Source of the DNA: an uncultured Candidatus Saccharibacteria bacterium
GTDB taxonomy: Bacteria > Patescibacteriota > Saccharimonadia > Saccharimonadales > UBA4665
DNA length: 64,000 nt
Direction of reading: 5' to 3'
NCBI GenBank assembly: GCA_963749175.1
Contig: CAVVLM010000006.1
Location: 15,558-79,557, forward strand
Positions 38,594-39,565 of this stretch are shown piece after piece. Both the position numbers and the translations under genes were made by a program. The notes beneath the pieces are model-generated. The model worked only from the letters and a program-made list of their open reading frames with translations. It searched no databases and had not been told where the DNA came from. Each line of letters opens with the position of its first letter. The first letter of the stretch is position 1.

Positions 38594-38644
38594 TTACTTT
38601 CGTCCTTTTGGACTCGTCAGCATGAGCGCACACTCATGAAGTAA
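38594..38644 (-). ncRNA. hammerhead ribozyme, type III
   Basis: Minus-strand RNA: UUACU U|CAUGAG UGUGCG CUCAUG CUGACGA GUCC AAAA GGAC GAA AGUAA. The stem I top pair is G-C where copies at 16.8 and 35.9 kb have A-U (compensatory change). Confidence 0.85.
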
Positions 38645-38734
38645 TACACATGTCAAACTGAGAAAGGCGGGAGTTGGGGGCGTCCTAAAAATCAGGACTT
38701 TAAATGCAAAATAAATGCATGCCCCCCAGCTCGC

Positions 38735-39565
38735 CTAGTGGTATTGCTCGATACCGAGAGTATTAAGCAGACCGCTTTTGGTGATGAAAATTAGCCCATT
38801 ACCGCTGGTATTGGCAGCGATCCCCGCAATCGATGAATGGTAGGTGTTAACTTTAGTTCCCAAGTTGGGTGCGCCAAGCAATGAATAGACGTTACCTTTG
38901 GCGGTGACCAACCAGAAGCCCTCTTTGACCATTTGGTCAATAGCTACGCCAATAATAGGCGAAGCAAGCTTATATATCGGTCCGCTCATACCTCCTTTAT
39001 GATCCATGATATCGATGAAGGAACCATCCTTGAAAAAGACAGTGTAGCCTTTGGTATAACCATCGCTAAAGATAGCAACGGCCGGTGGGTAGCTGCTTTT
39101 CAGCAAAGTTTTGGTGTCGCCGTAAAACAGCGCATCACCGAAACGGTAAACCGTACCATCGGAACCGAGCAGCCAGTAGCCGTGTTGGTCATTGGTGATG
39201 GCCATGCTGACGATTGGTGATGATGGCTTGAAGCTCTCAGCCGGGCCGTAAAATCGGGCATCGCCGTAAGCGAAGACTTTACCGCTGGCAGTATAAAGCC
39301 AGTAGCCTTGACCGTTATTGGCTGGCGCGATTCCGACAACAGGTTGGGTCAAATGTCGATGGCTGGCGTCTCCAAAAAAGGCGCAGCCGTAGTTGTAAAC
39401 TTTGCCGTTGCTTTGAACCGCCCAGTAGCCAAAGTCCTTGAAGGGTGTCGTCGCGATAGCAACGAAATGAGAAGTCGGGTAAGCTTCAGGGTTTGACGCG
39501 AAAGCCGGACAACTGCTGATTAATACCAGTACAGGCAGAATCATACATAGAGTAAAGCGTTTCAC
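38735..39565 (-). CDS. secreted repeat protein (GYW...G.V..(F/Y)GDA.F(Y/F)G repeats, probable beta-propeller)
   Basis: GTG start. Signal peptide MKRFTLCMILPVLVLISSCPAFA. About six repeats, e.g. GQGYWLYTASGKVFAYGDARFYGP and QHGYWLLGSDGTVYRFGDALFYGD. GC-richer than its neighbours. Confidence 0.75.
   Translation of the reverse strand: MKRFTLCMILPVLVLISSCPAFASNPEAYPTSHFVAIATTPFKDFGYWAVQSNGKVYNYGCAFFGDASHRHLTQPVVGIAPANNGQGYWLYTASGKVFAYGDARFYGPAESFKPSSPIVSMAITNDQHGYWLLGSDGTVYRFGDALFYGDTKTLLKSSYPPAVAIFSDGYTKGYTVFFKDGSFIDIMDHKGGMSGPIYKLASPIIGVAIDQMVKEGFWLVTAKGNVYSLLGAPNLGTKVNTYHSSIAGIAANTSGNGLIFITKSGLLNTLGIEQYH

What the first reader, a model, noticed from the sequence alone, without database searches (positions are those of the whole stretch)
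38594..38737. Recurrent architecture: minus-strand gene, GC-rich hairpin, then hammerhead
Each of the four ribozymes is preceded on its 5' side, within 2-22 nt, by a strong and mostly GC-rich long hairpin that starts near the stop codon of an unrelated minus-strand gene:
- 11401..11463 (GGACAGA.UAUAU arms)
- 16854..16900 (12-bp GUGUAUCGUUGG arms)
- 35919..36048 (nested GGUGGCGG/CCGCCACC arms)
- 38667..38735 (GGCG..UGGGGGC arms, touching the stop codon)
Three of the four hairpins have no U-tract after them. The 38.7-kb hairpin is followed by UUUCUCAGUUU and could terminate transcription on its own. Three of the four ribozymes sit between convergent genes.
Inference: self-cleavage would leave an mRNA ending in a protective hairpin with a 2',3'-cyclic phosphate, and would cut read-through transcripts before they run antisense into the convergent neighbour. 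To my knowledge this use of hammerheads is not an established bacterial mechanism.
Basis: inference. Interest (0 to 1): 0.85.

Follow-up and report, generated by a model that had tools for sequence, protein, structure and literature searches.

The report
Hairpin-plus-hammerhead mRNA 3' end module
Four self-cleaving hammerhead ribozymes in this Saccharibacteria genome each sit just after a stable RNA helix at the end of a gene, a layout shared by a large undescribed ribozyme family in ultrasmall bacteria, and it most likely cuts the messenger RNA to give it a structured, protected end.

Summary
The observation largely holds. The window (Candidatus Saccharimonadales) carries exactly four type III hammerheads, all on the minus strand. 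Each lies 1-22 nt after a hairpin that folds far better than shuffled sequence (z -4.2 to -5.5). Only two hairpins start near a stop codon, and GC content is modest (47-57%).

The layout is general. In 100+ loci, mostly Patescibacteria, the 70 nt before the ribozyme are unusually structured (mean z -2.7 versus -0.5 to -0.9 in controls). 80% of ribozymes follow a co-oriented gene. About 10% of the stems have a U-tail.

Orthologues of the 38.7-kb gene conserve promoter, 5'UTR, ORF, hairpin and ribozyme as one block. It ends exactly at the ribozyme and has compensatory changes. Flanking genes differ.

New here: the 10-16 nt next to the ribozyme are often perfectly complementary to the same gene's 5'UTR (14/14 in this window; 18 of 84 loci versus 1-5 in controls).

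Best reading: the ribozyme defines the 3' end of the upstream mRNA, which ends in a local hairpin or a 5'-3' closing helix. Protection from decay is inferred. Blocking antisense read-through is not supported. No transcript data were available.

The parts
38594..38644 (-). Type III hammerhead ribozyme HH4. Predicted cleavage is between U38639 and C38638. Stem I is CAUGAG/CUCAUG, stem II is GUCC-AAAA-GGAC, and stem III is UUACU/AGUAA.
   Evidence: 68.5 bits with family model R1. The core is identical in orthologues L121-L123, with compensatory stem III changes.
38648..38661 (-). 3' arm (UCAGUUUGACAUGU) lying 3 nt upstream of HH4. It is perfectly complementary to the 5'UTR arm at 39670-39683.
   Evidence: 14/14 complementary, arms 1008 nt apart. 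(duplex -21.8 kcal/mol, z -4.0, 0 of 200 shuffles). Both arms are conserved in the orthologues.
38667..38735 (-). Branched 69-nt hairpin that begins at the last base of the stop codon. It has an outer stem and two inner hairpins.
   Evidence: -30.2 kcal/mol, z -4.72. In the orthologues, an inner hairpin pair changes U-A to C-G, and an outer-stem G-C becomes G.U on the ribozyme strand.
38735..39565 (-). Upstream gene: a 276-aa secreted repeat protein with a signal peptide and GYWL-type repeats.
   Evidence: Orthologues are 77-82% identical (P0001-P0003).
39670..39683 (-). 5'UTR arm (ACAUGUCAAACUGA), the partner of 38648-38661.
39691..39760 (-). Promoter-like site (-35 TTGACT at 39755-39760, -10 TAATAT at 39732-39737), followed by a small 5'-terminal hairpin (CUUCG at 39720-39724 with CGAAG at 39691-39695).
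   Evidence: This is a consensus match conserved in the orthologues. The transcription start was not mapped.
35862..35917 (-). Type III hammerhead HH3, with a bulged stem III.
   Evidence: Rfam 30.7 bits; 63.9 bits.
35919..36048 (-). Nested 130-nt hairpin. It starts 6 nt after the stop of ORF 36055-36303, and its outer stem ends 1 nt before HH3.
   Evidence: (-42.7 kcal/mol, z -4.20).
16796..16846 (-). Type III hammerhead HH2.
   Evidence: 69.9 bits.
16854..16900 (-). 47-nt hairpin lying 7 nt upstream of HH2.
   Evidence: (-22.1 kcal/mol, z -4.66).
11342..11393 (-). Type III hammerhead HH1, a divergent copy with stem II GCCG-UAAA-CGGC.
   Evidence: 53.5 bits.
11401..11463 (-). 63-nt hairpin lying 7 nt upstream of HH1.
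   Evidence: (-22.8 kcal/mol, z -5.45).

Best explanation
The flagged stretch is the 3'UTR processing module of a single-gene transcription unit (about 39760 to 38594, minus strand). Its order is promoter, 5' stem-loop, 5' arm, ORF, stop codon, branched hairpin, 3' arm, type III hammerhead.

**Proposed steps**
1. RNA polymerase reads through the hairpin, which has no canonical U-tract.
2. The hammerhead folds and cuts itself between U38639 and C38638.
3. The released mRNA ends in a 9-nt tail carrying a 2',3'-cyclic phosphate. Just upstream of the tail are a helix formed with the mRNA's own 5'UTR and the local hairpin.
4. The ribozyme body stays on the downstream RNA, which begins with a 5'-OH.

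The other three window copies, and most of a large Patescibacteria family, use a local hairpin, a 5'UTR-3'UTR closing helix, or both.

**Shown by sequence analysis:** the ribozyme family, the helix next to it, its linkage to the upstream gene, and the 5'-3' complementarity.

**Inferred:** that cleavage happens in vivo, that it replaces intrinsic termination as the maker of the 3' end, and that the terminal helix plus cyclic phosphate slows 3' exonucleases.
For: **The ribozymes look genuine**
- 123 of 137 pattern hits fold as type III hammerheads. The cleavage dinucleotides are UC 92, UU 23, UA 8 and never UG.
- 99.3% of cells are paired, and the covariation score is 0.686 against 0.145 for shuffled and about 0.07 for slid partners.

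**There is structure just upstream of the ribozyme**
- The 70 nt upstream have a mean z of -2.66, and 58% are below -2. Controls give -0.5 to -0.9 (p about 1e-9).
- The ribozyme strand folds better than its reverse complement (p = 0.006).
- Uninterrupted stems end in the 10 nt before the ribozyme in 33% of loci, against about 8% background.
- Gene 3' ends without a hammerhead are less structured (mean z -1.23, 27% below -2).

**The ribozyme follows a gene**
- 75 of 94 lie after a co-oriented ORF, with a median stop-to-ribozyme distance of 86 nt.

**These are not classical terminators**
- Only 10 of 105 proximal stems have a U-rich tail.
- Terminator-like sites are not enriched in the window (25 found against 17.8 +/- 4.8 expected).

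**Orthologues tie the module to the upstream gene**
- Homology between the window and L121-L123 runs from the promoter to the exact 3' end of the ribozyme (39742/39697 to 38594). The flanking genes are unrelated.
- The 3'UTR is more conserved than the CDS and shows compensatory changes.

**Closing helix**
- The window has a 14/14 match.
- 18 of 84 loci have a perfect complement of at least 10 nt to the 20 nt before the ribozyme, against 1, 4 and 5 in three controls. The partner usually lies 14-170 nt upstream of the ORF start.
- The promoter lies outside the arms.
Against: - There is no transcript, 3'-end or cleavage data of any kind. Activity is inferred from sequence.
- The hairpin association is statistical, not universal (roughly 60%).
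- The long-range helix is significant for only one of the four window copies.
- The first MFE terminal-helix statistic did not separate real sites from controls.
- The family was collected with a pattern that fixes stem II. Instances were then filtered for pairing, so part of the structure statistics is circular.
- ORFs were called by a crude longest-ORF rule. The ORFs upstream of the 11.4- and 16.9-kb copies are orphans.
- Three related Saccharimonadales contigs (65 kb) have no copy, so this is not the general way these genomes end their mRNAs.
- In L064 and L065 the 5' arm covers the Shine-Dalgarno sequence. That points to regulation rather than simple protection.
Confidence: 0.5

Rival explanations
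1. The ribozyme is an intercistronic insulator that serves the downstream gene. It cuts polycistronic transcripts so that the downstream mRNA starts with a defined 5'-OH end and has its own stability or translation. The upstream hairpin would be incidental, or would only shield the ribozyme.
For: - 53 of 94 sites lie between co-directional genes.
- In a subset, a conserved GUUCUUUGA/AA leader motif begins 1-4 nt after the ribozyme and 20-35 nt before the next start codon.
- Processing of polycistronic transcripts has already been suggested for bacterial hammerheads (PMC3088659, PMC6765202).
Against: - Three of the four window copies, and 22 of 94 family copies, face a convergent gene and have no downstream gene to serve.
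- In the orthologues, conservation stops exactly at the 3' end of the ribozyme and the downstream genes differ.
- The helix and the 5'UTR complementarity lie on the upstream side.
Confidence: 0.15
2. The hairpins are the true transcription terminators, of a U-tract-less type. The hammerhead would be a fail-safe that trims rare read-through transcripts.
For: - The hairpins are strong and follow gene ends.
- The 38.7-kb hairpin is followed by UUUCUCAGUUU.
- Canonical hairpin-plus-U terminators are scarce in this window, so other modes of termination must exist.
Against: - The ribozyme, and the 14-nt arm downstream of the hairpin, are under strong purifying selection with compensatory changes. 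That requires regular transcription through the hairpin.
- About 90% of proximal stems lack a U-rich tail.
- In many loci the helix partner is hundreds of nucleotides away in the 5'UTR, which is not a terminator geometry.
Confidence: 0.1
3. The adjacent helix is a folding scaffold for the ribozyme. It would stack on the short stem III or sequester upstream sequence so that the 51-nt hammerhead folds correctly, with no role in mRNA stability.
For: - Stem III is short (4-6 bp in most copies).
- About a third of loci have a stem ending within 3 nt of stem III, and the gaps are typically 0-3 nt.
- In L046 every copy is abutted by an 8-9 bp hairpin with no gap at all.
- Synthetic ribozyme insulators such as RiboJ likewise combine a hammerhead with a hairpin (own knowledge).
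Against: - Stem III length does not correlate with the presence of a flush stem (Spearman 0.07, p = 0.46).
- The window gaps of 7, 7 and 22 nt are too long for stacking.
- A scaffold role does not explain why the partner is so often the gene's own 5'UTR.
Confidence: 0.1
4. Gene-plus-helix-plus-hammerhead units are mobile or selfish cassettes. Where hammerheads flank both sides, they may be excised as RNA and circularised, as in retrozymes. The ribozyme would mark a cassette boundary rather than serve the host's gene expression.
For: - The 1.1-kb block sits in unrelated contexts in four genomes, and its boundary is exactly at the ribozyme end.
- The upstream genes are small (median 161 aa), diverse, and mostly without a Pfam family.
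- Distribution is sporadic.
- Tandem hammerhead arrays exist (L046).
- The arms would bring a 5'-OH end and a cyclic-phosphate end together.
Against: - The four window loci share only the 51-nt ribozyme. There are no common flanks, terminal repeats or target duplications.
- No second hammerhead lies upstream of any window unit.
- The promoter lies outside the inverted arms.
- No integrase or reverse transcriptase was seen next to the units examined, although the window's ORFs were not scanned exhaustively.
Confidence: 0.1

Closest known systems
Bacterial and phage hammerhead ribozymes that flank genes (Perreault et al. 2011, PMC3088659)
   Same: They share the catalytic core and an intergenic position on the gene strand, often in several copies per region. 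Processing of long transcripts into gene-length mRNAs was proposed for them.
   Different: Those examples are mostly type II or type I, lie near prophage or integrase genes, and often flank a gene on both sides. No paired upstream hairpin and no 5'UTR complementarity was reported for them. The copies here are type III, chromosomal in Patescibacteria, and follow single genes. Rfam's type III model misses nearly all of them at its threshold.
Rho-independent terminator or 3' stabiliser hairpins (own knowledge)
   Same: A stable hairpin after the stop codon ends up at or near the mRNA 3' end and can block 3' exonucleases.
   Different: There is no U-tract. The 3' end would be made by RNA self-cleavage and not by polymerase release, and it would carry a 2',3'-cyclic phosphate instead of a 3'-OH.
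glmS ribozyme (PMC6765202)
   Same: It is a self-cleaving ribozyme embedded in a bacterial mRNA that controls the mRNA's fate.
   Different: glmS sits in the 5'UTR, depends on a metabolite, and destabilises the mRNA. This module sits in the 3'UTR, has no evident ligand domain, and is proposed to define or stabilise the end of the upstream mRNA.
Retrozymes and viroid-like RNAs with type III hammerheads (own knowledge; Obelisk papers appeared)
   Same: They use type III hammerheads. Cleavage gives 5'-OH and cyclic-phosphate ends, which terminal pairing can bring together for ligation.
   Different: Those need a ribozyme at both ends or rolling-circle multimers. The window units have a single 3' copy and a normal promoter. 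Tandem arrays do occur elsewhere (L046), but they were not analysed for circles.
Engineered ribozyme insulators and 3'UTR ribozyme reporters (RiboJ from own knowledge; twister 3'UTR reporters cited in PMC6765202)
   Same: A hammerhead or twister combined with a hairpin is used to give an mRNA a defined end.
   Different: Those are synthetic. In RiboJ the hairpin is downstream of the ribozyme and it defines a 5' end.

Membership tests
Hammerhead ribozyme, type III | Conserved catalytic core: C3 U4 G5 A6 N7 G8 A9 ... G12 A13 A14 | tested here: met
   All four window copies carry CUGA(U/C)GA ... GAAA. These columns are invariant in the 116-sequence alignment, although the search pattern fixed most of them.
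Hammerhead ribozyme, type III | Three helices around the core, with stems I and II closed by loops and stem III open | tested here: met
   Covariation across the family gives 99.3% paired cells, 15 of 18 pairs with changes on both sides, and a score of 0.686 against 0.145 for shuffled partners.
Hammerhead ribozyme, type III | A15.1-U16.1 pair and a cleavage-site nucleotide H17 that is not G | tested here: met
   U-A is present in 116 of 116 sequences. The cleavage dinucleotides are UC 92, UU 23, UA 8 and UG 0. The window copies are UU, UC, UU and UU.
Hammerhead ribozyme, type III | Score at or above Rfam RF00008's gathering threshold (48.5 bits) | tested here: not met
   The window copies score 30.7 and 20.9 bits, and two are not reported at all. 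One family member (L112) reaches 49.6 bits. This is a limit of the curated model and does not mean a structural feature is missing.
Hammerhead ribozyme, type III | Site-specific self-cleavage yielding 2',3'-cyclic phosphate and 5'-OH ends | not testable with these tools
   This needs in vitro transcription or RNA end mapping.
Intrinsic (Rho-independent) terminator | G+C-rich stem-loop | tested here: met
   GC content is 47-57%.
Intrinsic (Rho-independent) terminator | A run of U immediately 3' of the stem | tested here: not met
   The tails are UAAUUACUUCGU, CAUCGCCUUACU, AUCUACACUUCA and CUUUCUCAGUUU. Family-wide, 10 of 105 stems have at least 5 U in 8 nt.
Retrozyme or viroid-like hammerhead-delimited circular RNA | Hammerheads, or repeats that carry them, at both ends of the unit | tested here: not met
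   The model search finds only four copies in the window, and none lies upstream of a unit on the same transcript. Similarity among the loci is confined to the 51-nt ribozyme.
Transposable element or MITE | Terminal inverted repeats at the element's ends, with flanks shared among copies | tested here: not met
   No flanks are shared. The inverted arms lie inside the conserved block, with the promoter and the ribozyme outside them.

The most novel reading that the evidence does not exclude
Many Patescibacteria mRNAs may get their 3' end from a hammerhead cut and then be locked by base pairing to their own 5'UTR, giving a bacterial 'closed-loop' or panhandle mRNA that shields both ends. Where hammerheads delimit both sides of a unit, the juxtaposed 5'-OH and cyclic-phosphate ends might be ligated into circular RNAs.
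Probability: 0.3. Interest if true: 0.85.

Novelty: new variant of a known kind. Interest (0 to 1): 0.7.

Why it matters
What genomic self-cleaving ribozymes do in bacteria is a long-standing open question. Reviews call their roles largely elusive outside glmS (PMC6765202).

This analysis gives a concrete, testable role for a large hammerhead family in Patescibacteria that current Rfam thresholds miss. The family has a fixed position after genes, a helix partner next to the cut, and frequent 5'UTR-3'UTR complementarity.

If the reading is right, it would be an RNA-catalysed alternative to terminator-defined mRNA ends, and possibly the first natural bacterial mRNAs closed end to end. Some Saccharibacteria are now cultivable and genetically tractable (PMC10633639 appeared and was not read), so the proposal can be tested directly.

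Tried and rejected
**Searches that found nothing**
- Rfam at gathering thresholds found nothing in the window.
- There are no tRNAs in the window or in the loci with multiple hammerheads, so tRNA processing is ruled out.
- The 92-aa ORF upstream of the 16.8-kb hammerhead has no homologues. The ORF upstream of the 11.3-kb hammerhead has only two remote repeat-protein hits.
- A metagenome scan with the 135-aa protein of the 36-kb locus found no relatives.
- A metagenome scan with the subfamily ribozyme pattern gave four loci. Two were already known and two are unrelated units, although those two also show gene, then hairpin, then ribozyme.
- Three related Saccharimonadales contigs carrying the ABC-transporter orthologue hold no hammerhead.

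**Ideas rejected**
- The GUUCUUUGA motif after some ribozymes looked like rrn boxA. No rRNA lies nearby, and the motif is instead the start of the next gene's leader.
- A larger mobile element was rejected, because only the 51-nt ribozyme is shared among the window loci.
- A stem III stacking-compensation role found no support in a weak test: stem III length does not correlate with a flush stem.

**Tests that were uninformative or negative**
- Canonical terminators are not enriched in window 1-20000.
- My first statistic, the terminal helix of a 110-nt MFE fold, did not separate real sites from controls and was dropped.
- A lax stem criterion (6 bp, loop up to 90 nt) was likewise uninformative.
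- Long-range 5'-3' pairing for the three hammerheads at 11.3, 16.8 and 35.9 kb is not significant. The 19-nt, 84% match at the 11.4-kb locus is no better than chance pairs in the same region.
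Full report
**1. What is at the coordinates**

On the minus strand, 38738 to 38594 reads as follows:
- the stop codon of ORF 38735-39565;
- a 69-nt branched hairpin (38735-38667);
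- a 22-nt spacer;
- a type III hammerhead (38644-38594): UUACUU^CAUGAGUGUGCGCUCAUG-CUGACGAG-UCCAAAAGGA-CGAAA-GUAA.

The same core occurs at three other minus-strand sites. A 23-nt pattern finds three copies where shuffles give none, and a looser core pattern adds the divergent 11.3-kb copy. Rfam finds nothing at its gathering scores. In E-value mode it reports only two weak Hammerhead_3 matches, at 30.7 and 20.9 bits against a threshold of 48.5.

The four hairpins fold far better than dinucleotide shuffles (z -4.2 to -5.5, 0 of 200 shuffles) on either strand. Measured layout:

| Locus | Gap, hairpin to ribozyme | Distance, stop codon to hairpin |
|---|---|---|
| 11.4 kb | 7 nt | 66 nt |
| 16.9 kb | 7 nt | 56 nt |
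| 36.0 kb | 1 nt | 6 nt |
| 38.7 kb | 22 nt | -1 nt (overlaps the stop) |

Hairpin GC is 47-57% against 42% for the window. 'Near the stop codon' therefore holds for two loci only. The ORFs upstream of the 11.4- and 16.9-kb copies are orphans.

**2. The ribozymes belong to a large family**

By their record titles, 81 are Patescibacteria and 50 of those are Saccharibacteria.
- 123 of 137 matches fold as type III hammerheads. The cleavage dinucleotides are UC, UU or UA and never UG.
- In a 116-sequence alignment, stems I and III covary massively: 99.3% of cells are paired, and the covariation score is 0.686 against 0.145 for shuffled and about 0.07 for slid partners.
- Two caveats apply. The pattern fixed stem II and the core, and I filtered instances for minimal pairing.
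- A covariance model (R1) finds exactly four copies in the window, at 53-70 bits, and the next hit scores 15 bits.
- The window itself is from Candidatus Saccharimonadales, judged from ABC-transporter homologues.
- The open literature I could search has nothing on hammerheads in this phylum.

**3. Is 'gene, hairpin, hammerhead' general?**

Yes, statistically.
- 75 of 94 ribozymes with callable neighbours follow a co-oriented ORF, with a median stop-to-ribozyme distance of 86 nt. Downstream genes are co-oriented in 62 cases and opposed in 32.
- The 70 nt upstream of the ribozyme have a mean fold z of -2.66, and 58% are below -2. Flanking controls give -0.5 to -0.9 (p about 1e-9). The ribozyme strand folds better than its complement (p = 0.006).
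- Uninterrupted strong stems end in the 10 nt before the ribozyme in 33% of loci, against about 8% elsewhere.
- Ordinary gene 3' ends in the same loci are less structured (mean z -1.23).
- Only 10 of 105 proximal stems carry a U-rich tail. Terminator-like sites are not enriched in the window.
- The upstream genes are small, diverse and mostly without a Pfam family.

**4. Which gene does the module belong to?**

Three metagenomic orthologues of the 276-aa protein (77-82% identity) carry the same stop-hairpin-spacer-ribozyme. That stretch is more conserved than the coding sequence, and it shows three informative changes:
- a U-A to C-G swap in an inner hairpin;
- compensatory changes in stem III;
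- a G-C to G.U change that pairs only on the ribozyme strand.

Nucleotide homology between the window and these loci runs from 39742/39697 to 38594-38596. That span is promoter, 5'UTR, ORF, 3'UTR and ribozyme, and it stops exactly at the ribozyme's 3' end. No flanking gene is shared. In the orthologues the downstream genes are co-directional; in the window the downstream gene is convergent.

The module therefore travels with the upstream gene. Because the ribozyme is so well conserved, polymerase must regularly read through the hairpin.

The four window loci share nothing but the 51-nt ribozyme. Three related contigs totalling 65 kb have no copy.

**5.

The 'spacer' at 38.7 kb contains UCAGUUUGACAUGU (38661-38648). 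This ends 3 nt before the ribozyme and is a perfect 14-nt complement of ACAUGUCAAACUGA in the gene's own 5'UTR (39683-39670). The duplex scores -21.8 kcal/mol, z -4.0, and 0 of 200 shuffles do as well. Both arms are conserved in the orthologues.

The 5' arm lies about 45 nt downstream of a conserved TTGACT-17-TAATAT promoter-like site and just after a small 5' hairpin.

Family-wide results:
- The 20 nt before the ribozyme have a perfect complement of at least 10 nt within 1.5 kb upstream in 18 of 84 loci. Three controls give 1, 4 and 5 loci. In 13 of the 18, the partner lies 14-170 nt upstream of the predicted start of the same gene.
- A direct 5'-region against 3'UTR test gives 10 of 63 loci, against 0-5 in same-composition controls.
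- The 5' regions show the same order throughout: promoter, 5' hairpin, arm, Shine-Dalgarno sequence. The arm is therefore transcribed and the promoter lies outside the repeat, which argues for RNA pairing and against transposon ends.

For the other three window copies no significant long-range partner was found. They rely on local hairpins.

**6. Mechanism proposed**

Polymerase transcribes through the helix-forming segment. The hammerhead then cleaves. The upstream mRNA is left with a short tail (9 nt at 38.7 kb) carrying a 2',3'-cyclic phosphate, next to a local hairpin and/or a helix with its 5'UTR.

That much follows from the chemistry of the hammerhead class and from the anatomy. It is inference that this structure protects the mRNA from 3' exonucleases, and that the module replaces intrinsic termination as the 3'-end maker.

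The idea that cleavage prevents antisense transcription into convergent neighbours is not supported. Cutting the RNA does not release polymerase, and most family members lie between co-directional genes.

Four rivals remain open, each with lower weight:
- a maker of the downstream 5' end;
- a terminator with the ribozyme as fail-safe;
- a folding scaffold for the ribozyme;
- a mobile cassette.

The scaffold idea gained no support from the test of stem III length against flush stems.

**7. Comparison with what is known**

The ribozymes are members of the type III hammerhead class by every structural criterion, although not by Rfam's score threshold.

Bacterial hammerheads flanking genes, and the suggestion that they process long transcripts, were published in 2011 (PMC3088659). 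A 2019 review still called bacterial ribozyme roles largely elusive (PMC6765202).

I found no description of three things: the paired upstream helix, the 5'UTR complementarity, or the family's abundance in Patescibacteria. I therefore rate this as a new variant of a known kind. All functional statements await RNA end mapping and mutational tests.

Noticed in passing
L046:2343-6730 (JANLIU010000041.1, Candidatus Parcubacteria): An array of at least ten hammerheads on one strand, spaced 83-257 nt apart. Each is abutted, with no gap, by an 8-9 bp hairpin (GAGCUGGGG...CCCCG). The long units repeat a structured RNA with three conserved hairpins. The neighbouring ORFs look like a RAMP/Cas7-type protein and a DinG-like helicase; the helicase ORF probably accounts for the Helicase_C_2, DEAD and ResIII Pfam matches in the batch, while the RAMP/Cas7-like look was not tested. 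This may be a ribozyme-processed RNA array.
   Followed up: partly
e.g. L004:3074-3090, L008, L026, L057, L095, L103, L112, L115 (just 3' of the hammerhead): A conserved GUUCUUUGA/GUUCUUUAA motif starts 1-4 nt after some hammerheads. The same motif precedes the 5' arms of other units. It resembles rrn boxA, but no rRNA lies nearby. It appears to be the start of the next gene's leader, so some units are delimited by a hammerhead on both sides.
   Followed up: partly
L016, L060, L072, L076, L106, L108, L118 and others (the 12 nt before the hammerhead): A sequence-conserved arm pair recurs across Saccharibacteria loci and species: 5' (CUU)UGACAAGCAGA pairing with UCUGCUUGUCA just before the ribozyme. 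Conservation of the sequence itself, beyond the pairing, hints at a bound factor.
   Followed up: no
L064:2839-2849 with 3351-3361, and the corresponding arms in L065: In these units the 5' arm contains the Shine-Dalgarno sequence (UGAACAAGGAG, UUAAGUGAGG). The closing helix would therefore mask the ribosome-binding site.
   Followed up: no
window:39595-39655: A 30-nt imperfect palindrome (77% complementary, 1 nt between the arms) in the conserved 5'UTR of the 38.7-kb gene. Gene callers read this stretch as coding sequence in the orthologues, but the window has an in-frame stop there.
   Followed up: partly
   Followed up: no
window:20000-30000: A higher-GC block (0.47-0.52 against about 0.40 elsewhere). 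It holds glycosyltransferase genes and a 1619-aa protein with PQQ-propeller and DUF1349 domains, and may be horizontally acquired.
   Followed up: no
L120 (Logan contig ERR11630400_1274587), 3' end: An independent assembly of the same sequence breaks 2 nt after the GAAA of the hammerhead at 38.6 kb. The likely cause is that three near-identical 43-51-nt ribozyme copies act as an assembly repeat.
   Followed up: no
L112:7132-7186 and the family as a whole: In the Rfam gathering-threshold scans run here (the window and 18 family loci), only one family member reaches the Hammerhead_3 gathering score (49.6 against 48.5 bits). Standard annotation would therefore miss most of this Patescibacteria family.
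   Followed up: partly
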